NCBI GenBank assembly: GCA_035628755.1
Contig: DASPJG010000542.1
Coordinates: 1-27,690, forward strand
DNA from: Pyrinomonadaceae bacterium
GTDB taxonomy: Bacteria > Acidobacteriota > Blastocatellia > Pyrinomonadales > Pyrinomonadaceae
Direction of reading: 5' to 3'
DNA length: 27,690 bases
The notes under the pieces were generated by a model. It searched no databases. It saw only the letters and a list, made by a program, of their open reading frames with translations, and had not been told where the DNA came from. Shown here piece by piece: positions 1-12,927 of this stretch (positions within the stretch are counted from its first letter, which is position 1; every line of letters begins with the position of its first letter). A program made the position numbers and the translations under genes.

Positions 1-100
1 GAAGCTACCTCTCGACCATGAGAAAGCAAGGGCGCGGTGTTCTCCCAGCCCTTGAAGGGGCGTGCCGCGGAGTGCCGCTAAGTGCTAGAAAACGCTAAGA

Positions 101-140
101 ATAGCTGAACAGATACAAAACGCGGTGTCTATTCAGCTAT
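101..140 (-). terminator. Imperfect 15-bp inverted repeat; possible intrinsic terminator downstream of the UDP-glucuronate decarboxylase gene
   Basis: ATAGCTGAA-C-AGATAC-AAAACGCG-GTGTCT-A-TTCAGCTAT. On the minus strand it is followed by TCTTAGCGTTTT, only partly U-rich, about 190 nt past the stop at 329. Confidence 0.35.
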
Positions 141-328
141 CATGCAAAGACAGGCAAACAAAGGTGATTCCGGTGAGATAAGAGCGTCATAGCTCAAGCG
201 TATTCCTTCTCCTTTCCTGATGCCAGCAGATTTGAGCTTGCGACCTTCCGCACTCTAAAATATTTCTCGCAACACTACCGTCGCTACTATTTGCACCAGA
301 ACCGATTGATTTAGATATCAGGTTCCGT

Positions 329-1291
329 TTACTCATTCTGTCTAATTCTCCACCGCGCTTCAAAGTCGGCGATAGTTTTGCTGATCCCTTCTTGCAGGGA
401 GACGGTGGGTGACCAGCCCAGCAAAGTTTGTGCGCGCGAAATGTCAGGCCTGCGTTGTTTCGGGTCGTCCGGGGGCAGTGGGCAGAATTTGATGCTCACC
501 TCCCGTCCGCATAACCTGATCACTTCTTCAGCCAACTGTCGCATCGTACATTCGTCGGGACTGCCTAAATTGACAGGATCACAGATGTCAAATCTATCAG
601 GGGCTTGCCCCACGTTCATTAAACGAATCAGACCTTGCACCAGATCATCCACATAACAGAAGGAGCGGGTTTGAGTGCCCGTGCCGTAGATCGTCAAGTC
701 TTCGCCCCTGAGCGCTTGCAGGATGAAATTTGATACCACCCGTCCGTCATTTTCCTGCATCCTCGGCCCATAGGTGTTGAAGATTCTGGCGATGCGTGTA
801 TCCACCCCGTGCTGGCGGTGATAATCCATCATCAGCGTCTCGGCCACGCGTTTCCCTTCGTCGTAGCAACTGCGCAACCCAACAGGATTAACATAACCCC
901 AATAATCTTCCGTCTGTGGGTGAACTACCGGGTCGCCATACACTTCGGAAGTCGAGGCTTGCAGGATGCGCGCGCCTGAACGATGCGCGAGGTCCAGCAT
1001 GTTAATCGCGCCTAGGACGTTCGTCTTGATAGTCTTCACTGGATTGCACTGGTAGTGAGCGGGAGAGGCAGGACAAGCGAGGTTGTAAATTTGCTCTATC
1101 TCTAAATGGATGGGGTCTATAACATCGCCCTGTAGTAGCTTGAAGCGTGCGTGTCCCAATAGGTGAAAAATGTTGTCGCGGCGTCCCGTAAAGAAATTAT
1201 CGAGGCAGACGACCTGTTGACCTTCCGCCAATAGCTGTTCGCACAAGTGAGAACCAAGGAAACCGCTTCCGCCGGTAACTAGAATTTTCAT
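329..1291 (-). CDS. uxs: UDP-glucuronic acid decarboxylase family (extended SDR NAD-dependent epimerase/dehydratase), 320 aa
   Basis: [15 protein letters not shown] (GxxGxxG), [28 protein letters not shown] (YxxxK), [28 protein letters not shown]. Start trimmed from 1426 to the ATG at 1291, where the family N-terminus begins. Confidence 0.92.
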
Positions 1292-1716
1292 GTGGCAAGG
1301 TTCGGCATTTTGTCGTTTTGGAGTGCCGCTTGGGAAAGAGCAGCAGCTATTTATCCGTGAGGCTTCCGTGAACGAATACAACACCCGGCAGTAAATTAAG
1401 TCTTGAGCCGCCTGATAAATCATCAAGGATCACGACGGCGCGTAAACTAGGGGCGGATTATAACTGGAAAAGTGATTGCTGCAACACTACTGTATGTTAT
1501 CCTGAGCGAAGCATTAGCTGATTTGCTTTAAGACGAATGGCCATAGCTCATTCAGTTCCGGCATGGCCGTTTCTGGCCGGTCGGATTTAATCAACATCTC
1601 ACACAACTCATGCAACGTCACTTCTTTTTTGAGCCAAGCGATAACGGTTTATCTTGAGACACTGGAAGGGCGCGGCAATCCGCGCAGCCAGCCGCGTCCA
1701 ACAAGGGTACGAAGGA

Positions 1717-1732
1717 TGGCGCACGCTTTGCT
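1717..1732 (+). promoter_or_regulatory. Candidate sigma54 (-24/-12) promoter for the GT-C / oxidoreductase / PaaK-like operon
   Basis: TGGCGCACGCTTTGCT with GG at 1718-1719 and GC at 1730-1731 (canonical GG-N10-GC spacing, TTGCT at -12). It lies in the intergenic region about 165 nt upstream of the GTG at 1896. Confidence 0.55.
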
Positions 1733-1895
1733 TCGGTATAGCCATCAGCCCTCGGGTTGTTACGTCCGATGCGTGTTCAACAGGCCGTCTGTGGTGTAGT
1801 AACCCTCTCACAACCGACACCCAGGTTAAGATGAGATTCGATAGCCCTCTCGTCGCGTTCAAACTCACACACCCTACTGGGCTGGAGAAGTAAAC

Positions 1896-4250
1896 GTGAA
1901 GAAGACCCTAATATTCATGACGGGACTAGGCTTTGGCGCGGTTCTGACATACCTCTTCGAGCCAAGCAAGGGAAGACGGCGTGGGGTGCCCGTGCGAAAC
2001 AGGAGGGCGCGCGGAGTAGGTAACGCGGCGAATGTAATTGATAGTTCTTTGTCGGGTATCGGTCAGTACACGCAACGGGTTGAGGGCGAACCGGCGTTTA
2101 CCATGAGCGGTACACACCCGGCAAAGCATGAAGTTAGTGCGTGGAACTTCGCGGAGCCGGATTCGTCGTGCCGGAGCGACGAGCCGCATCAACTTTCCAT
2201 GCGCGCTCGCACAGCACCTTATCTGGCGGGTGAGGATAGATCGTGGAAATCGTGTAGGCGGGCGAGTAACACGTCGGGGCTAATTAACTCAGACTCCTTA
2301 TCTACCGGATGGTCGGAAGTGCTGCTAACTAAGAGCGATAGCTTAGTCTCCCGCGGCTCATTTTTGAGCACCTGCGTGTGGAGTTTACAGAAGGCTAAAA
2401 GCATTTATGAGCGCACTTCCGAGTGGCCGTTGATGCGTGAATTGTATGGTGAGGTGGTCTGGGGCGGGCGTCTTATCTTTGGTTTGATCTGTCGGATTTC
2501 TTTTGGCGTGTGTCTTTGCACGGCGGGGCTTGGCATACTCACGCGCCGTTCCTCCTCACGCGCGACCGTCTTCCGCACCGAGGGACTGAAAAACAATAAA
2601 TTTACAAAGAAAGAGGTTGCGTTGGTTGCGGGCTTAACGTCTCTGGCCTTGCTCTCACGCCTCTCACTCCTGCGCTTCCAGCAGGTCATGACTCCAGACG
2701 GAGTCTACTACGCGACCTTAGGGAAAAACCTCGTCGCGGGGAACTTCAGGGAGGGGCTGAGTACCTTCTACCCGCCGCTCTATCCACTATTGGTGGGACT
2801 CTCCTCCTGCATCTTCCGTGATGCGGAAGCCGGGGGGAAGATGGTCTCCGCGATGGCTGGCGGCTTGTTAGTCGTCCCCGTTTATTTATTGATTCGAATT
2901 CTTTACGGCGAAGGCGCAGCCGCAATCGGCGCTTTCTTAATCGCCACCCACCCCTCATTAAACTATTACTCGTCGCTTCTTTTAACCGAATCAACTTACA
3001 CGCTTTTATTCATGACCGCAGTGCTGGTGGGATGGATTGCGCTGTCAACGGGAGGCTCGGCCTTCCTCTCAACAGGAATCTTACTGGGAGCTTGCTATTT
3101 AGTTAGACCCGAGGCGATTGGCTATCTCTGCCTGATGTTAGTCTTAGCGTGCGGCAACGGTTTTTCGGGCAAACGCTTGCCGCTCCGAAGAGTGCTATTG
3201 AATGTCCTCAGTTTAGTCACGGGTTTTACGCTGCTGGCTTCCCCATACATTTTGTTACTCCGGCAACGCACAGGCAGGTGGACTATTAGCGATAAGCTGC
3301 GCGCGCTCGCGGGGTCCAACGAAAGTCTGGAAAGAAAATGGTTCGGCCTCGCGGCGGGACGGCGAACAACTCTGGCAGACAGACTGTATGGGGGAATTTA
3401 TGAGGATGACGCCGGAACTGTTGAAGCGGGGTCAACTCGCTCAAGTCCGCGAGACTTACGCCGCGCCGTCGGCCACAGCATCAAGGCATTAAAATGGGAA
3501 ATAAGTTATTTGATCCACCATCTGCTCCCTCCTCACCTCCTGTTGCTCCTGGGATTGGGACTGTTTAAGGCGGAGTGGACGAAGGAGTTTTATCTATTGC
3601 TCTTTTTCGTGGCGACCCTGATCGGGTATGCCATGCTCCCGGACGCCGTCGAGGGTAGACTCCTGCTGCCACTGCTGCCGCTGCTGCTCTGTTGGGTGGC
3701 GAGAGGGATCGAAGAGGTCGAGGACTGGCTCAACAGGTTATTGGAACGTATAAAATTTTCAAGAGCTTTTTCGTTAAAGGCCGGGCAGGTGCTCAGGGCA
3801 GCGGGCATGGCGGCACTGCTGCTATCCCTCCTGCCGTGGATCGCCCATACCTTTATCAGGGGTCAACTGAACCAACTGGTCGAGCACCAACAGGCGGGCG
3901 CGTGGGTGAGAGAACACTCGGACGCGGCGGCCCTTGTGATGGCTACTAATCCCTATGTAGCTTTTTACGCCATGCGGAAATCTCTCTACCTGCCTGCCGA
4001 GGAATATTTAACAGTCGTTGAACATGCGATGCGCCAAAAGGTTGATTACCTCGTGATAGATGAGGGTGTCATATCGAGGGGGCATTGGGGCAATAACGAA
4101 TTCTCGCATTTACGGTTTCTGCTTGACGAGCAAAGCCACCATCCCGAACTCAAACTGATTTATAAATTCGACGGCTTGCCGAATCGCAAAATACTTATCT
4201 ACACGCTGGCCCGAGATTTTCAAACCTTCGACGTCGAATCATTATCCTAA
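1896..4250 (+). CDS. GT-C fold (ArnT/PMT-like, glycosyltransferase family 39-type) polytopic membrane glycosyltransferase with an unusual ~230-aa N-terminal extension
   Basis: From about codon 231: first TM helix, then the loop MTPDGVYYATLGKNL...FYPPLYPLL, LLTESTYTLLF, YLVRPEA, RLLLPLLP and many TM helices, typical of GT-C enzymes. GTG start preceded by GGAGAAG. The true start could be further downstream. Confidence 0.8.
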   Translation: MKKTLIFMTGLGFGAVLTYLFEPSKGRRRGVPVRNRRARGVGNAANVIDSSLSGIGQYTQRVEGEPAFTMSGTHPAKHEVSAWNFAEPDSSCRSDEPHQLSMRARTAPYLAGEDRSWKSCRRASNTSGLINSDSLSTGWSEVLLTKSDSLVSRGSFLSTCVWSLQKAKSIYERTSEWPLMRELYGEVVWGGRLIFGLICRISFGVCLCTAGLGILTRRSSSRATVFRTEGLKNNKFTKKEVALVAGLTSLALLSRLSLLRFQQVMTPDGVYYATLGKNLVAGNFREGLSTFYPPLYPLLVGLSSCIFRDAEAGGKMVSAMAGGLLVVPVYLLIRILYGEGAAAIGAFLIATHPSLNYYSSLLLTESTYTLLFMTAVLVGWIALSTGGSAFLSTGILLGACYLVRPEAIGYLCLMLVLACGNGFSGKRLPLRRVLLNVLSLVTGFTLLASPYILLLRQRTGRWTISDKLRALAGSNESLERKWFGLAAGRRTTLADRLYGGIYEDDAGTVEAGSTRSSPRDLRRAVGHSIKALKWEISYLIHHLLPPHLLLLLGLGLFKAEWTKEFYLLLFFVATLIGYAMLPDAVEGRLLLPLLPLLLCWVARGIEEVEDWLNRLLERIKFSRAFSLKAGQVLRAAGMAALLLSLLPWIAHTFIRGQLNQLVEHQQAGAWVREHSDAAALVMATNPYVAFYAMRKSLYLPAEEYLTVVEHAMRQKVDYLVIDEGVISRGHWGNNEFSHLRFLLDEQSHHPELKLIYKFDGLPNRKILIYTLARDFQTFDVESLS

Positions 4251-4364
4251 TCCAACCGGCTTTAAACGAAACTCAATGGCGCAGCTTGCGAAGTGAAAAG
4301 CGAAACAAAGAAAGAGGGATGCTTCAATTTCACTTGCCCTAATCCGGACGGGCGCGGTGAGGTG

Positions 4365-5843
4365 ATGGCTTGCCCGTCACCTTCCAACTCTTCGCAGCCA
4401 AACGAGAAAATCATCATCCTCGGTGGCGGCATCACGGGACTCACCACGGCATGGGAGTTATCCAAACATTCCACACTCCCCATTCTCCTGATCGAGAAGA
4501 ATGCCTGCGCGGGAGGGCTGGCCGGTTCGCTGCAACGGAAAGACCGGGTATTCGACTTCGGCTCTCATCGAATCCATGAGCAATATGACCCTGAAGTGTT
4601 CAGCATCATCAAAGAACTCTTAGGCAGCGAATTGCTCAAAAGACCCAGAAGAGGACAGATCAGAATTCAGGGTAAATTTCTTGATTACCCGCCCGCAATC
4701 ACTCAGATACTGACGAGTTTCGGCTTTGCCGAGGGGGGACGATTTTTCCGTGACTTCCTGCTTTCAAGAAACTACTTTTTCTTCATACCGGGCCGGACAA
4801 CCACGCATAACCGGAGAACCTCTTTTGAAGCATACGCCACACACGCCGTCGGCAAGAGACTCTACGAGAACTTTTACAAGCCGTATGCCTTGAAACTTTG
4901 GGGAGTATCGCCAGCGGGTTTGTCGTTCGAGCCAGCGGTGAGTCGGGTCAAGAAATTCGAAGTGCGCACGGTCTGGAATGAAGTAAAGAAAAAAGCGACG
5001 GGGGCCGACGCCGCATACTCTTTCTACTATCCCGCGAGAGGCTTCGGCCAGATCGCGGAGAAGATACAGGAGCGGTTCATCGCAAATGGTGGCGAAATAC
5101 TTTTTGAGAGCAGCGTCGAGAGGCTGGAGTTAAATGAAGATTCTGAGATTGAAGCAATCCACATCCGTATGGCGGGGGGAGAATCCCGTCGGGTGCGGTC
5201 TAAACTATTTATCTCCACCGCCCCGATTGACGTCTTGCATCGTTTAGTATGCTCCGCGCAGGGGAACAGCGAGAGCGACAATCTGGGCTTATCCTGGCGG
5301 TCGCTAAGAATTCTCTACCTCTTCACGCCGGATAAAATTCCTTCCGAGCATGAGACCTACTACTTCCCTGAGCCGGACGTGATTTTTGGCCGTGTTTCTG
5401 AACCCGCCAAGTATAGCCCGTTCCTGAACCAAGCTACTGAGAAAAGCGCCCTCGTGATAGAGATACCCTGCACCTTCGACGACGAGATTTGGAATATGGA
5501 AGACAATGTTATCGCGGCGCGCTGCATAAGCGATCTGCGCAAACTTAAAATCCTGAGCCTTGAGTCGCGCGGGGCAGCGGAACACTTCTCACACAAGATC
5601 AAGAATCTTTATCCTGTTTACGAGTTGGGATGGAAAGAGAATCTGAACAAAGCTCTACGGAGATTTAATCTCATCAAGAATCTATATTTCGTCGGGCGTC
5701 CCGCTCTCTTTCTCCATTGCAACGTTGACCATTGTATGGCGATGGCTCTGAAACTCGCGCGCTTTCTCTCGGCAGGAGACGGGGCTCGGGAGGATTGGGA
5801 GCGGTCTCTAAACGATGTCTTCGACCTTTCGCTTCACGACTAG
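4365..5843 (+). CDS. FAD-dependent oxidoreductase (protoporphyrinogen oxidase-like / UDP-galactopyranose mutase-like family often found in glycan clusters)
   Basis: Dinucleotide-binding IILGGGITGLTTAWEL, EKNACAGGLAGS, FDFGSHRIH, YYPARGFGQI, YPVY, and C-terminal VGRPALFLHCNVDH. ATG at 4365 chosen; the ORF track start is 4293. Confidence 0.8.
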   Translation: MACPSPSNSSQPNEKIIILGGGITGLTTAWELSKHSTLPILLIEKNACAGGLAGSLQRKDRVFDFGSHRIHEQYDPEVFSIIKELLGSELLKRPRRGQIRIQGKFLDYPPAITQILTSFGFAEGGRFFRDFLLSRNYFFFIPGRTTTHNRRTSFEAYATHAVGKRLYENFYKPYALKLWGVSPAGLSFEPAVSRVKKFEVRTVWNEVKKKATGADAAYSFYYPARGFGQIAEKIQERFIANGGEILFESSVERLELNEDSEIEAIHIRMAGGESRRVRSKLFISTAPIDVLHRLVCSAQGNSESDNLGLSWRSLRILYLFTPDKIPSEHETYYFPEPDVIFGRVSEPAKYSPFLNQATEKSALVIEIPCTFDDEIWNMEDNVIAARCISDLRKLKILSLESRGAAEHFSHKIKNLYPVYELGWKENLNKALRRFNLIKNLYFVGRPALFLHCNVDHCMAMALKLARFLSAGDGAREDWERSLNDVFDLSLHD

Positions 5844-5867
5844 ATTTTCCTGAGGAGCGAAGCGCGG

Positions 5868-7235
5868 ATGGCACTGGAATTCAAACTCAGCGATTTCGCT
5901 CACCCGGCGGCAATCATTAAGCTGCGCGCGACCTTTGAGAAAACCCAGTGGTTCACCACGGAGGAGCAGACGCTCTATCAAGAACGTCTGCTCCGACGAA
6001 TCGTCGAGCATGCTTACCGCTACGTGCCGTATTATCGAGACCTCTTCGACAGTATCCATCTAAAGCCGGACGACATTCGACGGCTCTCCGACCTCAATAA
6101 AATCCCAATTCTCACCAAAGAGATCTTACATGCGCGGTTTAAGGGGCTAGAAGCGACGAACAGCCGCGCATTTCGCCCGCAAGTTCTTTGCACCAGCGGC
6201 ACGACCGGGCGGAGCATCCAATTCCTCGTTGATAGACCTTCGAACGTTCTGGAGTTTGTGTATTACTGGCGGCATTGGAACTGGGCGGGCTATCGGCTCG
6301 GCGCGCCGTTCGCCGAGTTCTCCAGCGTCTTCTTTTTGCAGGGTGACGAAAAATCCCGGCTCGCGTCGCATCATCAAAGGTTGACCAGCAGGCTGCTGCT
6401 GAACAGCCTCACGATGTCACACGCTAGTGTCAGAGATTACGTCGGAGCGATCAGGAAATACCGTCCGCTCTTTCTTAAAGGTTTGCCGTCGGTGCTCTAC
6501 TACTTCTCACTCTTCCTGCGGCGGCAGGGCGTTGCGGACATATCTTTCAAAGCGGTCTTCTCCACCGGCGAGACGCTCGTTCCGCGCTATCGCAAGCTAA
6601 TCGAAGAGGCCTTCGGTTGTAAGGTTTACGACTCCTACGGCCACATGGAACGAACCGTCGCGATCTCGGAGTGCCCTCACGGCGGTCTCCACATCAATCG
6701 TGACTACGGCATCATGGAACTCATTCCGCAGACTGGCCTCAGGGCAGACCTTACCGGCAAAGGCCGCGATGGGGTGGCTCACAGCGCGAGCGTCATCGGG
6801 ACTTCACTTTACAACTTCAGCATGCCACTCCTCCGTTACGAAGTCGGAGATACGGTCTCGGTTGACCCGGAGAAAAGGTGTGCGTGCGGGCGGCAATTTC
6901 CTCTCGTCAGCGCAGTAGAGGGGAGGCAAAGCGAAGTGCTCTTGACGCCGGAAGGAAAAGTGATTACCGCGGCGTTTCTGGTCTTCGAAGACGTGCCGGA
7001 TATTTTGGAAGGACAAATCTTGCAGGAGTCGCCTGACCGTCTATATGTCAAAATCGTTCCCGCCCCGTCTTTCTCGAAGGCCAGCGAGGCGTTTTTAAAA
7101 TCCCGCCTGCAAATGTTGGTCGGGACAGACGCGAAGATAACAGTAGAACGCTGCGATAGCTCGGAATTGCTTCGTGCGAGTTCAGGCAAAGTTTTAACGG
7201 TAGTATCAAATTACCCGGCGAGACAGGCTATTTAA
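5868..7235 (+). CDS. Phenylacetate-CoA ligase family / CapK-like adenylate-forming enzyme
   Basis: VPYYRDLF, PILTKE, TSGTTG P-loop, STGE, DSYGHMER (YGxxE), PLLRYEVGD, C-terminal SGK. RBS GAGGAG upstream. Confidence 0.85.
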   Translation: MALEFKLSDFAHPAAIIKLRATFEKTQWFTTEEQTLYQERLLRRIVEHAYRYVPYYRDLFDSIHLKPDDIRRLSDLNKIPILTKEILHARFKGLEATNSRAFRPQVLCTSGTTGRSIQFLVDRPSNVLEFVYYWRHWNWAGYRLGAPFAEFSSVFFLQGDEKSRLASHHQRLTSRLLLNSLTMSHASVRDYVGAIRKYRPLFLKGLPSVLYYFSLFLRRQGVADISFKAVFSTGETLVPRYRKLIEEAFGCKVYDSYGHMERTVAISECPHGGLHINRDYGIMELIPQTGLRADLTGKGRDGVAHSASVIGTSLYNFSMPLLRYEVGDTVSVDPEKRCACGRQFPLVSAVEGRQSEVLLTPEGKVITAAFLVFEDVPDILEGQILQESPDRLYVKIVPAPSFSKASEAFLKSRLQMLVGTDAKITVERCDSSELLRASSGKVLTVVSNYPARQAI

Positions 7236-7989
7236 ACGCCTGAATGATGGCGTAGGTGCTCAAGTATTTGAGGGGCGTCAGATATTTGTTGACGAGTGAA
7301 AAATCGAATCTTCCTAAAGGCCGCAACAACCCATCGGTGCCCGTCTTCCAGAGGCAATACTTTATGCTTTCCCGCGTCAAACATTCCATGTAATGGAATT
7401 TAACCTCCGGGAACGCGCTTTCGATCAGTGCCAAATCTTCTCCGCTGAGTTCCCCCTCGTCGTCTGTCAACGGGCTGGGGTGGAAGGGAAGTTTCCCATG
7501 AATCCAGCGCATGGGTTTCAGCAGGCAGACAGGTTCTTCGGCGAGGAAGCGACCACCTTCCACTAAGGATTGATGGACTCGCTCTATGACCTTCGCTAGA
7601 TTCATGTGGTGAAGCGCCCGCTTACAGACCACGACATCGAACTTCTCTTCGAACGACATCTCTTCGCAATCCATCACCACCGCGCAGAGATTTTTTTCAA
7701 TGCCCATTTGCCGTGCCAGTTCATTGGTTTGCCCTGAGGCCACGTCGGAAATATCGACGCTGACAACTCGATTGTTGTTTTTCGCCAAAGACACGCCCAC
7801 GGTGTCAACGCCGCCTCCTATTGTCAGAATCTTCTGGCCGCTGAACTTTCTCAAAAGATCGTTGAAGGCATCTTCGCTGTAGGAAGAATTGGTGAAGGAT
7901 TGGCTCCATACGTATTTCTCGTGATTAAGTCCTTCAGCCCGATACGCTTCATTCCAGTATTGCTTCTCTCTGGTCGCTCGATCATTCAT
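7228..7989 (-). CDS. Class I SAM-dependent methyltransferase
   Basis: Motif I KILTIGGG, acidic motif II VVSVDIS, MDCEEM, FDVVVCKRALHHM, LVEGGRFLAEEP. RBS GAGAGG upstream. Confidence 0.85.
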   Translation of the reverse strand: MNDRATREKQYWNEAYRAEGLNHEKYVWSQSFTNSSYSEDAFNDLLRKFSGQKILTIGGGVDTVGVSLAKNNNRVVSVDISDVASGQTNELARQMGIEKNLCAVVMDCEEMSFEEKFDVVVCKRALHHMNLAKVIERVHQSLVEGGRFLAEEPVCLLKPMRWIHGKLPFHPSPLTDDEGELSGEDLALIESAFPEVKFHYMECLTRESIKYCLWKTGTDGLLRPLGRFDFSLVNKYLTPLKYLSTYAIIQAFK

Positions 7990-8006
7990 GCTTCAGTAGC
8001 CTCTCG

Positions 8007-9044
8007 TCACATAAGCATTCCTTCCCGCTGATTGGTGTACCACCTTTTAAATGTTTTGATGTCGAACCACTGAGCGTCGAAATGCTCCACGGCGAACCGC
8101 GCGTTGTTATCTTCCGCGACCGGCATTCCTTTGAGCAAAAATATTTTCCGCCGGGCCGCATGACTTTCCACCAATGTGGAGATGCCGGGTTTTGTAATAA
8201 TGCTCGCGCACTCTCTAAGCAACGGCGCGAGTGTCGGTACGACGCCGTGAACCTGAATCTTCGCATTGTTCCCGAAGCCGTCTTGCAGCTTCTCGTAAGC
8301 TTTCGTATTCTCGGCGCACACGGCATGGATTCTTAAATCTGGCAAAGCACCAGACAGTTTCTCCACCGTCTCGACGATTGGACCCTGCCCCCAGAAGCCA
8401 CAGACGAGCAAGACACTGTTGATGTCTGCCTGAACTTCCGAAATGTCCAGGTATTCCTGTCTGGCCGGGAGATTGATTTTGATGAACCGCACGTGTCGAG
8501 GCATCTCAAACCTGAGCGCGCTGCTCTCGACGGGAGACAGAAACCCATTCAACTGTTCCCAGAACTGATACTTCCATCCTAAATTTTTTCCATACTCGCC
8601 TAGTACTCCCCACACGGAAAAATCCAGTCGCTCCCGCCTTTTCACATTGGCAACCCAGAAGGCCGGGCGATGACTGACGCAGATTACCGTCTTGACGCCG
8701 AGAGTTTCGATCTTCTCGCGCAGGTTTCCCAGATCAGCTGTGTTGAATAGTTTCTCTCTGAGGTACTTGCGGTAGTAAAAAAGCGGGATTTTGTAAACGA
8801 GGTATAAAAGAAAAGGGAAGTTGTTCGATATGTATTTGTACCGTTCGAGGTCTTCCCTGACCACGTCAGGGGAAACGAACTCCTCGATTGGAACATGGTA
8901 CACGGGATGCTTATCTTTCAATCGCTGCCGGATCGCTTCGCCGAGGGTGTACATGCCCCGCCCGACCACCGTGCTGACGATCAGGACGGGCGGCTCAAAG
9001 TGTTCGGATAAATCTTCGACCTCAAAGAATCTTCCGCTTGGCAT
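8007..9044 (-). CDS. GT28/MGDG-synthase-like (UgtP-like) GT-B glycosyltransferase, divergent
   Basis: N-terminal LIVSTVVGRG, VICVSH, LLVCGFWGQG, VCAENTKAYEKL, and C-terminal ASIITKPGISTLVES...E.NN resembling the GT28 DLxITKPGGxTxxE motif. Confidence 0.7.
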   Translation of the reverse strand: MPSGRFFEVEDLSEHFEPPVLIVSTVVGRGMYTLGEAIRQRLKDKHPVYHVPIEEFVSPDVVREDLERYKYISNNFPFLLYLVYKIPLFYYRKYLREKLFNTADLGNLREKIETLGVKTVICVSHRPAFWVANVKRRERLDFSVWGVLGEYGKNLGWKYQFWEQLNGFLSPVESSALRFEMPRHVRFIKINLPARQEYLDISEVQADINSVLLVCGFWGQGPIVETVEKLSGALPDLRIHAVCAENTKAYEKLQDGFGNNAKIQVHGVVPTLAPLLRECASIITKPGISTLVESHAARRKIFLLKGMPVAEDNNARFAVEHFDAQWFDIKTFKRWYTNQREGMLM

Positions 9045-10188
9045 CGTATAAGTAGAGAGCGTTGCACTTACTGCAAATGGGCAGCGGCCCCTCGCGACGC
9101 AACTCTCTGAATCTCGCGTACTCGGGAGAGTTCCAAACGTCCATGACGCTGCTGTCGTTTAAGTTGCCGAGGGTCAAATCAGGATAGAGCGCGCAGGGCG
9201 TGACCGCACCGTCAGGAGTGACATCCATGCGTAGCCATTGCTTATAGCAGAACGTGTTACCCGGCGGCACCTGCGGCGTATCCACATAGGTGTGAATATC
9301 TTCCGGTTCTTTGAGATAACAGGAAACCGGAATCGGCCATTTCTCGCCCTTGATTCTTTCGTACTGGCGTATAAATTCTTCTTGATCGAGGTCGTAAGGG
9401 AGGAGGTATCCCAAATGTGACGTGGGAGTAATCGCAAAATGCTTCTGCATGTAATCTTCGTATTCCCGGGCTTGTTCCTCCGAAACGAACCAGCATAGAT
9501 TTAGTAGAATCCAATCCACGTCCAGCTTGATCATCTCGCGGCAGAACTCATACATGACGCCCACGTTTTCGGGTCTGATCGTGAACTGGATGCCAATATA
9601 CGGAGGCTTCTTGAGCGACTTGAGCAGCTTAATGTTTCTTACGACCCGTTCATAGACGCCTTTACCCCTGAGTTGATCGTTCTCTTTTTTGAGTCCATCC
9701 AGAGACACCAAATAAGTCAGGTAAGGATTGTCGGCGCTGACATCTTTAAAGCGATGCAAGAGAGTGCCGTTGGTGCAGGTAACTGCGAAACAGCGTCTCT
9801 CTCTAAGTGTCTCGGCCAGTCTCTTGAAATTCGAGTAGAGCAAAGGCTCGCCGCCGATGAGAATGAAAGAGGGATGTTGTTTACCTAACTGGGAGAAGAG
9901 ATTCTCGACCACGTTCCAAGAGAGTTCCTCCGTTATCGCTTCGGGCACTTCTTGTTTGCACCAACCCGCGTCTCCCCACTCGTAGCACATCGTGCATCTC
10001 AGGTCGCACTTGTACGTGAGGGTTAACTTATAAACCAGAGGTGCAGGCACCTGATCATCCTTCCCGACGTTCTCTTCGAGCCATTGATAACGGGAAAAGA
10101 ACTTCAGTTTATTGACGATCAAATGTTCGACGTACCGGGGATGCCTCCACGCCAGTTTAGTGAGACCGCTGATTGAGGGAATCGTCAT
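9022..10188 (-). CDS. Radical SAM enzyme with short 4-Cys SPASM/twitch domain
   Basis: CDLRCTMC (CxxxCxxC), GGEPLL, TNGT, VSLDG, and C-terminal CYKQW...DGAVTPC...LGNL...WNS...CSKC. RBS GAGAGGA upstream. Confidence 0.92.
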   Translation of the reverse strand: MTIPSISGLTKLAWRHPRYVEHLIVNKLKFFSRYQWLEENVGKDDQVPAPLVYKLTLTYKCDLRCTMCYEWGDAGWCKQEVPEAITEELSWNVVENLFSQLGKQHPSFILIGGEPLLYSNFKRLAETLRERRCFAVTCTNGTLLHRFKDVSADNPYLTYLVSLDGLKKENDQLRGKGVYERVVRNIKLLKSLKKPPYIGIQFTIRPENVGVMYEFCREMIKLDVDWILLNLCWFVSEEQAREYEDYMQKHFAITPTSHLGYLLPYDLDQEEFIRQYERIKGEKWPIPVSCYLKEPEDIHTYVDTPQVPPGNTFCYKQWLRMDVTPDGAVTPCALYPDLTLGNLNDSSVMDVWNSPEYARFRELRREGPLPICSKCNALYLYDAKRKIL

Positions 10189-10373
10189 AAAAGTCCTCTC
10201 TGCTGATTGCGGGCGGCGTCAACCTGTCTGATGCATGTGGATGGCCTTACCAGACAGAACTCTTTGCTGTTTTCCATTGTCGGCAAGGTAAAGATTTTCC
10301 CGCGTCGGTAAAGAAGATGTTGGATTACCGCTGCATCCGCGCAATGAGTAACCGGAAAAAATATCGCCTTCGG

Positions 10374-11561
10374 CTAAGTCTTTGACTCGTCGAGTTCGTA
10401 GAGGTCGCAACATCTGCTGCAAGAAGGAAAGAGACCATCCTCGCTTAACGACTTCCTGAACTTTCTCATTCCAGAGTCGTTCCATATCTCCGTGAACTTC
10501 TGCTCTCTGACGTTCCCCATCTTGGCCTCTGGAAACCAGGGACAACCGACCACGTCGCCGTTCGGCATCACGACGGCGCGTTTCCAGGGCACGTGACATA
10601 TCTTCTCTCCGAAAACCGACTCCGGGGATTTGAAGTACAAGTCATAATCAAATCCTGTCACCTCATGCTTCGGGTATCTTTTGAACTTAAAAGTCCAGGC
10701 TTTCTCCCTAACTAACTTTTCCTGCTTCGCTAAGGACTGCGAATTTATCGCGGACACATCCCGAAGAAATCCATTCCAGAGCTTGGGCGTGACCCCGAAG
10801 GTCTCCGCAAACCTTGCTTTTGTTCTCTCTAATAATTCCGGGGTCGTGAACATTCCCAATTGAATCTTAAAATAATCAACTTCTAACCCATCCACGACCT
10901 CCGCGGTTTCCAGAATGTAATCGCTGTTCTCAATGGTTACGGTGGTGCACACTTCAATAATGGGGAAGGCACTTTTCAGCTTTTTCTTTGCGCTAACCAG
11001 AAGGTTTATTCCGCGTATGATCCGATTATAGACATCATTTCCTTTGCGAATTTGATTGTTGATTCTCTCCGGCCCATCGAGGCTGGCGATGTAGTAGTCC
11101 AGCCCTGACTTGACGAGAGAGTCCGCTAGTTCTTCGGTCAACAGCGTCGTGTTGCTGTTTAATGCGGTCAATAAATTTCGGTCGGAAGCGAACTCGATTA
11201 TTCTTGGAATATCTTTTCGGAGCAGTGGCTCGCCCCCGAAAAAGTATAGATAGGGTTTCCAACCACTTATCTCTTCAATCAGGTTTTCCCACTGCTCTGT
11301 CGCCATCTCGTCTTTTAAGACTTTACTCTCAACCTCCTTATAACTTCCCTGATCTCCCCATTCCCAGCACTGAACACATCGAAGGTTACACATATTGTTA
11401 ATCTGTATGGTCATCAAAGGAGGTAACGACGAAGCAAAATGTTCTTGCCGGAATCCCTTCGCGGAAGAGAATTTTGTGGTGTATGCCATCTTTAAAAGAG
11501 ACCCTATTTTATAGGGCTCACGTAAGAGGTAATGCCTGAGTCTCTCAAATTCTTTTTGCAT
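10374..11561 (-). CDS. Radical SAM enzyme with short SPASM/twitch domain (paralogue-like to 9022-10188)
   Basis: CNLRCVQC, FGGEPLL, NSNT, ASLDG, and C-terminal CHVPW...NGDVVGC...MGNV...IWN...CSRCC. Confidence 0.92.
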   Translation of the reverse strand: MQKEFERLRHYLLREPYKIGSLLKMAYTTKFSSAKGFRQEHFASSLPPLMTIQINNMCNLRCVQCWEWGDQGSYKEVESKVLKDEMATEQWENLIEEISGWKPYLYFFGGEPLLRKDIPRIIEFASDRNLLTALNSNTTLLTEELADSLVKSGLDYYIASLDGPERINNQIRKGNDVYNRIIRGINLLVSAKKKLKSAFPIIEVCTTVTIENSDYILETAEVVDGLEVDYFKIQLGMFTTPELLERTKARFAETFGVTPKLWNGFLRDVSAINSQSLAKQEKLVREKAWTFKFKRYPKHEVTGFDYDLYFKSPESVFGEKICHVPWKRAVVMPNGDVVGCPWFPEAKMGNVREQKFTEIWNDSGMRKFRKSLSEDGLFPSCSRCCDLYELDESKT

Positions 11562-11769
11562 GGCGCGCCTTCTTCCGGGAATTTTTCACCCTGTTGGCAT
11601 CCGCAAACAATGACCGGAACACAGGCACAGCTACGGATGAAAATGGTTTTAGGCTATGGAATGTTTCTCGGAAGGGGTTCATGCTTAAGGTTCCCCGCAG
11701 GAATCCGGTTAAAGTGTGAAGAGTCGGTAGTCGCCCGTAATCGCTCGTGATCGATTGTAAGTAACCGGA

Positions 11770-11798
11770 GGTATACTCCTTAGCAGGCACTCCGTCAA
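11770..11798 (-). promoter_or_regulatory. Candidate sigma70-type promoter for the radical SAM cassette, overlapping a short palindrome
   Basis: Minus strand reads TTGACG-N17-TATACC, about 200 nt upstream of the ATG at 11561. The -10 box lacks the last T. It overlaps the palindrome GGAG-GTATA-CTCC (11767-11779). Confidence 0.3.
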
Positions 11799-11894
11799 TG
11801 TTTATTCATCGCGGAGAGCGACTAAATCAGGCACGAAACGGAATCAATCAAGTGTGTCGGATAGTGCGGATGCTGCTGCTTGCGCAGTTGCCGC

Positions 11895-11909
11895 GGCAGT
11901 GTTGCGAAA
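11895..11909. repeat. IS6-family terminal inverted repeat (right end)
   Basis: GGCAGTGTTGCGAAA resembles the IS26 terminal repeat GGCACTGTTGCAAA and lies about 40 nt beyond the transposase remnant's 3' end. Confidence 0.7.
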
Positions 11910-12385
11910 ATTATTTCAGAGCGCAGAGTGTTACCGGCGGCTCTTTCTCAGGCGGCGATCTGAAAGGGCGAAGCGACGAACTTCGTCTGCCCTCGCGCGT
12001 CATTCCCGGCTAATCTTTTAACTTGGCCTTACCTCATCATGTTCACCGCTTCAATGCCTTCCAGTGTTCGTTCCGCCGCGTGAAAACTCTTGAAGCATTG
12101 TGAGGCGCGCACCTCTTTTTTGATGAAGCGGTGATCCTGTTCGATAATATTGTTGAGGTATTTCACACGCCTCAAATGACAATCCGAAGGTAGTGTCTGG
12201 TCAATTTGCGATGTGGTAAACGCCTCCGGATAAGCGGCATTCTTATCTACAGAGATGGAGAACGGGAGTCTGCAATGCTCGGCTCTCATCATCTTCTTAA
12301 AGAATCGTTTTGCTGCGGAAGCGTCGCGTTTCGCACTGAGCATGAACTCGATGGTTTGTCCTTTGAGGTCGAGGCAGTGAACCAC
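11895..12385 (-). mobile_element. IS6-family insertion sequence remnant (3' half of DDE transposase, 5' end lost, premature stop)
   Basis: GQTIEFMLSAKRDASAAKRFF, VDKNAAYP, KYLNNIIEQDHRFIKK, FKSF...TLEGIEAVNMMR*GQVKRL...FQIAA*. The TAA at 12029-12031 replaces the expected Lys and the original stop is at 11948-11950. The N-terminal WRVDETY region is absent or eroded. Confidence 0.9.
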
Positions 12386-12409
12386 TAAGCCGCGGTGATA
12401 TAGGCGGTG

Positions 12410-12700
12410 CCCCGATGTAGGCCGGAACGTCGCGCCACGCGAGTCTGCCCTGCGAAGCGTTGGCGCGTTACTGCCAAGCAGGAGAGTGCCCGTGCCGCCC
12501 GGCAATGGGCTCGCAGCATCGCACTACATCGAGGGAGGTGCATCGCGGCAGTTGCACTGGCGCGGAAACTGTCGGGCATCCTTTACGCGATGTGGCTGAC
12601 GGGACTTCATTCAGGGGCGAGCAGCGCGCGCGCGAACGAGGCACTTCCTGCGCGGGAACCAGCAGGGGTTCTGTGTAAGACACAGTCAGAAAGTGAATAG
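12410..12700 (+). mobile_element. IS110-family transposase C-terminal remnant (frameshifted, 5' part lost)
   Basis: WRV...RQWARSIALHRGRCIAAVALARKLSGILYAMW matches the typical IS110 C-terminus (RRGxxxAxVAxARKLxxILYAMW). Upstream AG...EA-like residues lie in another frame. Confidence 0.75.
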
Positions 12701-12927
12701 GCGGAGCATCAAAAGTAAGCGCCGCAGCGGGTGCGAATCCAGACGCCTTCCCCGTAGTCGTAGCTTCAACGAGTTGGATTATTATTGGCGACGTGTCACA
12801 TAATTGCCCCATTTCGCCCTACCGTAATAGGACAAACGGGCAAATATCCGCTCTGTGGTGAACTCGCCTCACGGGTTCAGCCATGTAAATCTCTATGCAA
12901 AACAAACTTTTTGATCACTGAGTAACC

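What the first reader, a model, noticed from the sequence alone, without database searches (positions are those of the whole stretch)
7228..11561. Tandem twitch radical SAM enzymes with a GT28-like protein and a methyltransferase: uncharacterised radical sugar or glycolipid chemistry
Seen: two ~390-aa radical SAM proteins, each with only about 50 residues before CxxxCxxC (no room for an RRE/PqqD domain) and a short auxiliary domain with C...C...CxxC. They are coupled to a UgtP/MGDG-synthase-like protein and an MTase. Established: this 4-Cys twitch layout is used by carbohydrate/cyclitol-acting enzymes such as BtrN (dehydrogenase), HygY and SpeY (epimerases) and BlsE (decarboxylase). Inference: the cassette performs two radical steps plus methylation on a nucleotide sugar or glycolipid head group, i.e. 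possibly a new glycoconjugate pathway.
Basis: partly seen in the sequence, partly recalled or inferred. Interest (0 to 1): 0.7.

Follow-up and report, generated by a model that had tools for sequence, protein, structure and literature searches.

The report
Conserved radical-SAM sugar-tailoring gene cassette
A soil acidobacterium has acquired a rare gene cassette, shared across several bacterial phyla, that pairs two iron-sulfur radical enzymes with a lipid-glycosyltransferase-like protein, a sugar-mutase-like flavoenzyme and a carboxylate-activating ligase; it most likely builds an unusual sugar on a membrane-bound glycoconjugate, and no described pathway matches it.

Summary
The minus strand carries two about 390-aa radical SAM genes (30% identical), each with CxxxCxxC after 57-60 residues and exactly four invariant C-terminal cysteines (twitch layout). 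They are followed by a GT28-like gene and a class I methyltransferase.

The conserved unit is larger than reported. In 13 loci from Acidobacteriota, Planctomycetota (including cultured Saltatorellus ferox Poly30), Thermodesulfobacteriota, Myxococcota, Omnitrophota and others, the constant core has four parts: a UDP-galactopyranose-mutase-like flavoenzyme, a CapK/PaaK-like adenylating ligase, the rSAM2 type and the GT28-like protein. The rSAM1 type is nearly always present. The methyltransferase (8 of 13 loci) and a GT-C transferase (about half) are optional.

There is no conserved small ORF and no RRE domain, so a peptide substrate is unlikely.

The GT28-like protein has a confident UgtP/MGD1 fold and an intact nucleotide-sugar motif. 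It has lost the canonical G-x-G-H histidine (G-R-G-M/V instead).

Here the cassette lies in a low-GC island (49.5% against 61.8%) beside an IS6 remnant. It was not found in 40 relatives or in 400 sampled genomes of the phylum.

The best reading is tailoring of a lipid-linked sugar or glycolipid head group; the product is unknown. This scan met the same cassette before on other DNA (e1-4715615, e1-3300161).

The parts
10374..11561 (-). rSAM1: twitch-type radical SAM enzyme (395 aa). Cluster cysteines C58/C62/C65; auxiliary cysteines C322/C340/C381/C384 (plus C385).
   Evidence: Pfam. Invariant cysteines in 16 orthologues. AF2 pLDDT 95.6. Separate orthologous clade with 98/92 support.
9022..10188 (-). 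rSAM2: twitch-type radical SAM enzyme (388 aa), 30% identical to rSAM1. The more conserved of the two and part of the universal core.
   Evidence: Clade support 100/99. Present in all 13 loci examined.
8007..9044 (-). GT28-like GT-B protein (345 aa). The UgtP/MGD1 fold and the nucleotide-sugar motif are kept (K285, E293, E311, N314). The G-loop reads G-R-G-M instead of G-x-G-H.
   Evidence: AF2 pLDDT 90.9. Foldseek against MGD1 2e-11 and full-length UgtP with TM 0.66-0.74. Profile against UgtP structure 9wde 3.4e-13. Alignments. 53 clusters at E<=1e-30 among 1.84 billion representatives.
7228..7989 (-). Class I SAM-dependent methyltransferase (253 aa). An optional member of the cassette.
   Evidence: Pfam Methyltransf_11/25/31/12. 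Present in 8 of 13 loci.
5868..7235 (+). CapK/PaaK-like adenylate-forming ligase (455 aa) with a TSGTTG P-loop. Core member. Converges on the methyltransferase gene with an 8-nt overlap.
   Evidence: Best PDB matches are phenylacetate-CoA ligases, 5e-17. CapK_C family. Present in 13 of 13 loci.
4293..5843 (+). FAD enzyme of the amine-oxidase fold, closest to UDP-galactopyranose mutases (516 aa). Core member, always next to the ligase.
   Evidence: Pfam Amino_oxidase and NAD_binding_8. The best PDB hits are UGMs, top 4dsg at 1.6e-10. The G-x-H loop and the YFP...R arginine are conserved in 12 of 12 orthologues.
1896..4250 (+). GT-C (PMT_2 family) membrane glycosyltransferase (784 aa), first gene of the plus-strand operon with the flavoenzyme and the ligase. 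A frequent accessory gene.
   Evidence: Pfam PMT_2 40.7 bits. Orthologues in L004, L006 and L011. Other GT-C types in L090 (GT87) and possibly L091.
329..1426 (-). NAD-dependent sugar-nucleotide epimerase/dehydratase (SDR, 365 aa). Possibly supplies the modified NDP-sugar. Not conserved with the cassette.
   Evidence: Pfam GDP_Man_Dehyd and Epimerase. NCBIfam hits are below cut-off.
12029..12505 (-). Truncated IS6-family transposase remnant at the edge of the low-GC island.
   Evidence: Pfam DDE_Tnp_IS240 93 bits. NCBIfam IS6 match covers only positions 90-201 of 202. GC figures.

Best explanation
The four genes belong to a horizontally acquired six-to-eight-gene cassette that makes and tailors an unusual sugar on a membrane-associated glycoconjugate, either a glycolipid head group or a lipid-linked glycan unit.

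Proposed steps, all inferred:
1. A nucleotide sugar is prepared. The UGM-like flavoenzyme may change ring form or carry out another flavin step, and the nearby SDR may also act.
2. The GT28-like protein binds the nucleotide sugar with its intact C-domain and passes the sugar to an anionic lipid-bound acceptor. The invariant Arg29, which replaces the usual His-containing loop, would hold that acceptor.
3. The two twitch radical SAM enzymes each abstract a hydrogen from an unactivated sugar carbon. The outcome could be epimerisation, oxidation, decarboxylation or ring rearrangement. Their single auxiliary cluster would handle the electron.
4. The CapK-like ligase adenylates a carboxylate, probably a uronic acid, and amidates or esterifies it.
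5. Where present, the methyltransferase caps a hydroxyl or an amine.
6. Where present, the GT-C enzyme transfers the finished lipid-linked unit to an acceptor outside the cytoplasmic membrane.

Shown here: the folds, the motifs, the gene linkage and the lack of a peptide substrate gene. Inferred: the substrate, each reaction and their order.
For: - Gene linkage: flavoenzyme, ligase, rSAM2 and the GT-like gene occur in 13 of 13 loci from at least five phyla, as one co-directional operon in L007, L010, L016, L089 and L090.
- All-against-all ORF clustering over 10 loci found only these families conserved.
- The GT-like model is confident. Its best matches are lipid glycosyltransferases: MGD1 and MurG in the PDB, and UgtP over residues 18-343.
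- The donor-site residues K285, E293, E311 and N314 are invariant, also against generic GT28 proteins.
- The flavoenzyme's best solved relatives are UDP-galactopyranose mutases. The His loop and the YFP...R arginine are conserved in 12 of 12 orthologues.
- The ligase has a PaaK fold and belongs to the CapK_C family.
- A PaaK/CapK-like protein, VpsH, is genetically required for adding glycine to the uronic acid of a polyprenyl-PP-linked disaccharide in Vibrio cholerae (PMC13463779, read).
- GT-C, GT4, GT9, GT87, YdjC, sulfotransferase and SDR genes flank different copies.
- The rSAM1 model matches the sugar-acting twitch enzymes BlsE (Z 25.4) and DesII (24.1). The best sequence match of its C-domain is BtrN.
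- Both rSAM N-termini are basic amphipathic helices, which would suit a membrane surface. This is weak evidence.
Against: - No product, substrate or activity is known for any member.
- The structural neighbours of the rSAMs include peptide enzymes (SkfB, SuiB, anSME), tetrapyrrole enzymes (AhbC, AhbD, NirJ) and lipid-tail enzymes (GMGT synthase, Tes) at the same level.
- The GT28-like protein lacks the canonical G-loop histidine, so it may not be a transferase. The GT28 fold also houses a hydrolase, PseG.
- The cassette has no GT2-type polyprenyl-phosphate sugar synthase and no flippase gene, both of which a GT-C route usually needs.
- The flavoenzyme-ligase pair also occurs without the rSAM and GT-like genes, in a Spirochaetota genome.
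- Similarity of the window's ligase to VpsH was not tested.
Confidence: 0.5

Rival explanations
1. Lipid-tail chemistry. The rSAMs act on alkyl or isoprenoid chains of a membrane lipid (C-C coupling, cyclisation or branching, as Tes, Gms, Mss and GrsA/B do). The flavoenzyme acts as a desaturase, the ligase activates a fatty or aryl acid, and the GT28-like protein only adds or recognises the head group.
For: - GMGT synthase is the second best Swiss-Prot structural match, and its alignment includes the N-terminal helices. Tes (7tol) appears in both the sequence and the fold searches.
- One locus (L091) surrounds the GT-like gene with three rSAM2-type, two rSAM1-type, two B12-binding and one MiaB-like rSAM genes plus one further rSAM, an SDR and the flavoenzyme. 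That pattern suggests repeated chemistry on a repetitive substrate.
- The closest relatives of the GT-like protein use diacylglycerol.
- The rSAM N-termini are basic and amphipathic.
Against: - The flavoenzyme is closer to UDP-galactopyranose mutases than to desaturases (UGM 1.6e-10; phytoene dehydrogenase 2.4e-4, N-terminus only).
- No fatty-acid, polyketide or isoprenoid gene is conserved with the cassette.
- The flanking genes are glycan enzymes.
- The one functional precedent found for the ligase type, VpsH, is glycan amidation.
Confidence: 0.17
2. Soluble specialised metabolite. The cassette makes a modified sugar, cyclitol or nucleoside-type small molecule, in the way BtrN, BlsE, DesII and HygY serve antibiotic pathways. 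The GT28-like protein would glycosylate a soluble aglycone.
For: - The best sequence match of the twitch domain is BtrN, and BlsE and DesII are top structural neighbours.
- The cassette is a rare, mobile, patchily distributed island, as is usual for specialised metabolism.
Against: - No scaffold-forming gene (cyclase, aminotransferase, NRPS or PKS), exporter or resistance gene is conserved with it.
- Membrane GT-C enzymes sit in the same operon here and in other loci.
- The nearest relatives of the GT-like protein are lipid glycosyltransferases rather than natural-product GT1 enzymes.
Confidence: 0.12
3. Peptide or protein maturation. The twitch rSAMs cross-link or epimerise a ribosomal peptide or a protein, which is then glycosylated and methylated, in the style of mycofactocin.
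For: - SkfB (Z 25.6), SuiB and anSME are among the top structural matches.
- Many NCBIfam hits are RiPP maturases, all far below their cut-offs.
- Mycofactocin combines an rSAM, an oxidase, a glycosyltransferase and a methyltransferase. This is from general knowledge.
Against: - No conserved small ORF exists in or beside 10 loci. The 62-aa ORFs upstream in L006 and L007 are unrelated to each other.
- The N-terminus is two helices, not an RRE.
- No peptidase, PqqD-like protein or ABC exporter is conserved with the cassette.
Confidence: 0.06

Closest known systems
UgtP/YpfP and plant MGD1 (GT28 diacylglycerol glycosyltransferases)
   Same: GT-B fold over the whole length (TM 0.66-0.74). The C-domain TKPG...E and E..N donor motifs match.
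   Different: - 14-23% identity, no Pfam hit, and NCBIfam 43 bits against a cut-off of 500.
- The G-x-G-H histidine is replaced by Met or Val, with an invariant Arg inserted in the loop.
- The family is a narrow, separate clade: 53 clusters, followed by a drop in score to the generic GT28 proteins.
- It is always encoded next to a radical SAM gene.
BtrN, BlsE and DesII (radical SAM enzymes acting on cyclitols, sugar nucleosides and NDP-sugars)
   Same: Radical SAM barrel. For BtrN and BlsE there is also a single-cluster twitch domain with the same C...C...CxxC layout.
   Different: - Sequence similarity is weak (E 1e-7 to 1e-4) and mostly limited to the twitch domain.
- The cassette enzymes are 120-150 residues longer than BtrN, with an extra N-terminal helical pair and an insert before the twitch domain.
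- The genomic context is an envelope-glycan type locus, not an antibiotic cluster.
Calditol synthase Cds and hopanoid HpnJ (radical SAM enzymes that rearrange a sugar already attached to a lipid)
   Same: The same logic of a glycosyltransferase followed by a radical SAM enzyme acting on a lipid head group (review PMC13459092).
   Different: No sequence or family relationship was tested or shown. HpnJ is, from memory, a B12-domain type rSAM. Those pathways have no UGM-like or CapK-like partner.
VpsH of Vibrio cholerae and CapK-type ligases in capsule loci
   Same: PaaK-like adenylate-forming fold in a glycan pathway. VpsH is required for adding glycine to a uronic acid on a lipid-linked intermediate (PMC13463779).
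   Different: Direct similarity to VpsH was not measured. The ligase here is always paired with a UGM-like flavoenzyme, which the part of the VPS paper read here does not mention.

Membership tests
Radical SAM superfamily | CxxxCxxC motif in a partial TIM barrel, and Pfam PF04055 above its cut-off | tested here: met
   C58/C62/C65 and C61/C65/C68 are invariant. PF04055 scores 68.6 and 56.9 bits against 29.5. The model shows the barrel.
Twitch subclass (one auxiliary cluster) | A short C-terminal beta-hairpin and helix domain with about four cysteine ligands and no CX2CX5CX3C motif for a second cluster | tested here: met
   Exactly four invariant C-terminal cysteines in each paralogue, with C-x12-G-x4-C ... 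CxxC spacing. The C-domain aligns to the BtrN twitch domain. Cluster content itself cannot be tested here.
Full SPASM subclass (two auxiliary clusters) | Seven or eight conserved cysteines, including CX2CX5CX3C | tested here: not met
   The Pfam SPASM model scores above its cut-off, but only 4 cysteines (rSAM2) or 4 plus 1 (rSAM1) are conserved, and the protein ends 10-13 residues after CxxC.
RRE-dependent RiPP maturases | An N-terminal RRE/PqqD-like winged-helix domain and a co-encoded precursor peptide | tested here: not met
   The N-terminus is two helices, residues 2-31. No small ORF is conserved across 10 loci.
Any curated radical SAM family (NCBIfam) | A score at or above the family's curated cut-off | tested here: not met
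   The best hit is N_Twi_rSAM at 95.7 and 90.7 bits against 170. All others are far below their cut-offs.
GT28 (UgtP, MGD1, MurG) | GT-B fold with the C-domain nucleotide-sugar motifs (TKxG...E; E/Q..N) | tested here: met
   K285, E293, E311 and N314 are invariant, also against generic GT28 proteins.
GT28 (UgtP, MGD1, MurG) | An N-domain G-loop G-x-G-H carrying the histidine proposed as catalytic base or acceptor ligand | tested here: not met
   13 of 14 generic GT28 relatives have G-x-G-H. All cassette members have G-R-G followed by M, V, T or A. The role of the histidine is from memory of the MGD1 literature.
UDP-galactopyranose mutase | An FAD Rossmann motif, the His loop and the diphosphate-binding arginines, and the curated score | tested here: inconclusive
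   The best PDB hits are UGMs. G-x-H and YFP...R align and are conserved in 12 of 12 orthologues. TIGR00031 scores 43.8 bits against 303.75. The residue roles are recalled from memory, not checked.
PaaK/CapK adenylate-forming ligases | The ANL P-loop (T/S-S-G-T-T-G) and the PaaK-type two-domain fold or the CapK_C domain | tested here: met
   TSGTTG can be read in the translation. PaaK structures match at 5e-17 over residues 69-366. PF27533 is on record for the window's own protein. Whether it forms a CoA thioester or an amide was not tested.

The most novel reading that the evidence does not exclude
The His-less GT28-like protein and the two twitch radical SAM enzymes form a new head-group-remodelling system. 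It would convert a lipid-linked hexose or uronic acid into a rearranged sugar (ring-contracted, carbocyclic or doubly epimerised), which is then amidated. That would define a new class of bacterial glycolipid or envelope sugar and two new radical SAM reaction types, with bacterial parallels to archaeal calditol and hopanoid cyclitol-ether formation.
Probability: 0.15. Interest if true: 0.8.

Novelty: new variant of a known kind. Interest (0 to 1): 0.55.

Why it matters
Radical SAM enzymes that work on sugars or on lipid head groups are few, and almost all of them come from antibiotic pathways or from archaeal and hopanoid lipids. This cassette offers two uncharacterised twitch-enzyme families and a divergent GT28 family without the canonical histidine. 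It also offers a recurrent UGM-like/CapK-like gene pair. All are linked in one transferable unit found in soil, sediment and aquatic bacteria of several phyla.

One carrier, Saltatorellus ferox Poly30, is cultured and has a complete genome, so the product can be sought directly. Finding it would add an envelope sugar or glycolipid structure and probably new radical chemistry. It would also give a function to several hundred unnamed proteins. The cassette is rare and its product is unknown, so the wider biological importance is open.

Tried and rejected
1. Complex prediction of rSAM2 with the GT28-like protein gave no verdict (score 0.00). This is no evidence either way.
2. Precursor peptide. 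The small ORFs upstream in L006 and L007 are unrelated. The small ORFs in L091 look like unrelated membrane or phage-type proteins. The 81-aa ORF at 11545-11790 has no conserved counterpart.
3. Literature searches found nothing describing this cassette. The term sets tried were radical SAM with twitch and glycolipid; radical SAM with UGM, PaaK and glycosyltransferase; radical SAM with MGDG synthase and Acidobacteria; and twitch domain with nucleotide sugar. A search for HygY/SpeY returned only unrelated papers.
4. The idea of L-gulose-type double radical epimerisation was dropped. The papers found on gulose biosynthesis concern GDP-mannose 3,5-epimerase, an SDR-type enzyme.
5. Rfam found no riboswitch or other RNA family in the window. 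The promoter and terminator scan was at or below chance.
6. Fold searches with the rSAM1 model do not separate sugar, peptide, tetrapyrrole and lipid enzymes.
7. The archaeal GT28_C protein next to a related rSAM (L097) shares only the generic donor motif with the cassette's GT-like family.
8. Sequencing runs: the DNA is held by soil metagenomes from several studies, and no RNA holder is listed.


Full report
**What is there.** The minus strand between 7228 and 11561 carries four genes:
- rSAM1, 10374-11561, 395 aa
- rSAM2, 9022-10188, 388 aa
- a 345-aa protein without any Pfam hit, 8007-9044
- a class I SAM methyltransferase, 7228-7989

rSAM2 and the 345-aa gene overlap by 23 nt, and 17 nt separate the latter from the methyltransferase. 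Both rSAMs pass the Pfam cut-offs for Radical_SAM and SPASM but reach no curated NCBIfam family. The best is the generic 'twitch domain-containing radical SAM' subfamily, at 95.7 and 90.7 bits against a cut-off of 170. They are 30% identical to each other.

**The twitch claim.** In an alignment of 16 rSAM1 orthologues (36-81% identity) the invariant cysteines are C58, C62, C65, C322, C340, C381 and C384, and C385 is nearly invariant. The rSAM2 alignment holds 14 rSAM2-type sequences and 13 more distant relatives, and its invariant cysteines are C61, C65, C68, C314, C332, C372 and C375. The spacing is C-x12-G-x4-C ... CxxC, and the proteins end 10-13 residues later, so there is no room for the second SPASM cluster motif. 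The best PDB sequence match of the C-terminal 75 residues is the twitch domain of BtrN. The AF2 model of rSAM1 is very confident (pLDDT 95.6). It shows two N-terminal helices (residues 2-31), then the barrel, an insert, and a hairpin-plus-helices C-domain. No RRE fold is present.

**The 345-aa protein.** A model built on 25 homologues has pLDDT 90.9. Foldseek places it with plant MGD1 (2e-11), MurG and PseG among solved structures. Among reviewed proteins it matches full-length UgtP, the processive diacylglycerol glucosyltransferase, with TM 0.66-0.74 over residues 18-343. A profile of the family matches the C-domain of a solved UgtP at 3.4e-13.

The donor-site residues K285 (in TKPG), E293, E311 and N314 are invariant. 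They stay invariant when generic GT28 proteins are added to the alignment. The N-domain G-loop differs. It is G-x-G-H in 13 of 14 generic relatives and G-R-G-(M/V/T/A) in every cassette member. The histidine usually assigned to acceptor activation or binding is therefore lost, and an invariant arginine appears beside it.

The family is small and sharply bounded. There are 53 clusters at E<=1e-30 among 1.84 billion representatives. Below them the scores fall to the level of generic full-length GT28 proteins, near 1e-20. 'GT28-like' is correct; 'a UgtP' is not.

**The real extent of the unit.** I fetched loci around homologues of rSAM1, the GT-like protein and the ligase and mapped the window's proteins onto 13 of them. 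The flavoenzyme (4293-5843), the CapK/PaaK-like ligase (5868-7235), rSAM2 and the GT-like gene occur in all 13.

| Locus | Source |
|---|---|
| L004/L009 | Pyrinomonadaceae |
| L010 | Terriglobia |
| L011 | Saltatorellus ferox Poly30, a cultured planctomycete with a complete genome |
| L006/L013 | Thermodesulfobacteriota |
| L016 | Myxococcales |
| L089 | Omnitrophota |
| L007, L012, L014, L015, L017, L090, L091 | unclassified or only broadly labelled metagenomic assemblies |

In L007, L010, L016, L089 and L090 the cassette genes form one co-directional operon. The rSAM1 type is missing only from L089. The methyltransferase is missing from L004/L009, L011, L012, L014 and L089. A PMT_2 GT-C gene accompanies the cassette in the window, L004, L006 and L011. 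L090 has a GT87 GT-C, and L091 has an unassigned 584-aa multi-pass protein.

All-against-all clustering of every ORF of at least 25 aa in ten loci found no other conserved family and no conserved small ORF. A maximum-likelihood tree separates an rSAM2 clade (support 100/99) from an rSAM1 clade (98/92). Non-cassette relatives lie nearer to rSAM1. The two are therefore old, distinct partners and not a recent tandem duplication.

**The two extra core genes.** The best solved relatives of the flavoenzyme are UDP-galactopyranose mutases, led by the T. cruzi enzyme at 1.6e-10 over residues 38-391. The alignment places a G-x-H loop and a YFP...R arginine opposite UGM residues that I recall as the histidine loop and a diphosphate-binding arginine. 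Both are conserved in 12 of 12 orthologues. It does not reach the UGM family cut-off.

The ligase matches phenylacetate-CoA ligase structures (5e-17), carries the TSGTTG P-loop and belongs to the CapK_C family. A 2026 study shows that VpsH, a PaaK/CapK-like protein, is required for adding glycine to the uronic acid of a polyprenyl-PP-linked disaccharide during Vibrio polysaccharide synthesis (PMC13463779). That is the only functional precedent I found for this type of ligase in a glycan pathway. I could not compare the two sequences directly. The flavoenzyme-ligase pair also occurs by itself in a Spirochaetota chromosome, so it is a module in its own right.

**How it most likely works.** The core combines a nucleotide-sugar-binding, lipid-glycosyltransferase-like protein with a sugar-mutase-like flavoenzyme and a carboxylate-activating ligase. 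Frequent GT-C partners and flanking GT4, GT9, GT87, YdjC, sulfotransferase and SDR genes complete the picture. Together these point to the tailoring of a sugar on a membrane-bound carrier. The rSAMs would supply C-H activation at unactivated sugar carbons, as BlsE, DesII and BtrN do. The ligase would amidate a carboxylate, the methyltransferase would cap the product, and the GT-C enzyme would deliver the unit outside the membrane.

The N-termini of both rSAMs are basic amphipathic helices across orthologues, which fits work at a membrane surface but is weak evidence. I put about 0.5 on this class of explanation. Each individual step is inferred.

**Rivals.**
- Lipid-tail chemistry (0.17). GMGT synthase and Tes are among the structural neighbours. 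Locus L091 packs nine rSAM genes, two of them B12-dependent and one MiaB-like, around the GT-like gene. Against it, the flavoenzyme is closer to UGMs than to desaturases, and no lipid-chain gene is conserved with the cassette.
- A soluble antibiotic-like sugar or cyclitol (0.12). It lacks scaffold, export and resistance genes and does not fit the GT-C linkage.
- Peptide maturation (0.06). It is disfavoured by the absence of a precursor gene and of an RRE, although SkfB is formally the top structural match (Z 25.6 against 25.4 for BlsE).

**Origin in this genome.** The genome averages 61.8% GC, with a standard deviation of 2.7 among contigs over 5 kb. The four genes average 49.5% and the first 12 kb of the window 51.8%, while the rest of the contig is 58%. 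A truncated IS6 transposase lies at 12029-12505. The GT-like marker was not found in 40 relatives, 19 of them in the same genus, nor in 400 genomes sampled across the phylum. Only about ten of 185,579 species representatives carry a close rSAM1 relative. The cassette is a rare, mobile accessory trait. Near-identical DNA occurs in soil metagenomes from several studies.

**Known or new.** No paper found describes the cassette. Two earlier reports of this scan met it on other DNA and reached the same general reading. I re-derived their claims on my own loci.

New here:
- the loss of the G-loop histidine in the GT28-like family
- the UGM-like nature of the flavoenzyme
- the orthology tree of the two rSAM types
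- the hierarchy of modules
- the VpsH precedent
- the evidence for recent acquisition

I class it as a new variant of a known kind, namely radical-SAM-assisted glycoconjugate tailoring, with an interest of 0.55.

Noticed in passing
window 1-12800: The left 12 kb of the contig is a low-GC island (51.8%, the four-gene cassette 49.5%) in a 61.8% GC genome. It ends at a truncated IS6 transposase (12029-12505), so it was probably acquired horizontally. The left boundary is cut off by the contig end.
   Followed up: yes
window 1896-4250: The PMT_2 GT-C protein is 784 aa, whereas its orthologues next to the cassette elsewhere are 513-560 aa (L004, L006, L011). The extra roughly 230 N-terminal residues have no family match. 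The first ATG/GTG/TTG start listed may be too far upstream.
   Followed up: partly
L091 4228-21023 (also L092-L094): In a metagenomic organism assembled in many samples, a GT-like orthologue (53% identical) sits among nine radical SAM genes: three rSAM2-type, two rSAM1-type, two B12-binding, one MiaB-like and one other. An SDR, the flavoenzyme and the ligase are also there. This is a strongly expanded version of the cassette.
   Followed up: partly
L098 7646-10341: The UGM-like flavoenzyme and the CapK-like ligase occur as an adjacent pair in a complete Spirochaetota chromosome, with no radical SAM or GT28-like gene nearby. The pair is therefore an independent module.
   Followed up: no
L097 6788-10211: In a Thermoplasmatota-type archaeon (Ca. 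Saliniplasma) a related twitch rSAM (29% identical to rSAM1) lies tail to tail with a Glyco_tran_28_C protein and next to a PAP2 lipid phosphatase. This may be an independent rSAM-GT28 pairing. The GT shares only the generic donor motif with the cassette family.
   Followed up: partly
L096 5802-8221, and the P0074 contig: Two other branches of the same rSAM family sit directly beside a DUF362 (Fe-S) protein. In L096 the locus also holds a LytB-UbiA fusion and a split B12-rSAM.
   Followed up: no
L006 8649-9911; L090 12013-13245; L091 4228-5508: A MiaB-like (UPF0004 plus Radical_SAM) gene of about 410-426 aa accompanies the cassette in three loci. This hints at a further radical step, possibly methylthiolation, in some variants.
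   Followed up: no
window 7228-7235: The ligase gene (plus strand) and the methyltransferase gene (minus strand) converge, and their ends overlap by 8 nt. In other genomes the same genes are co-directional in one operon, so part of the cassette has been inverted here.
   Followed up: partly
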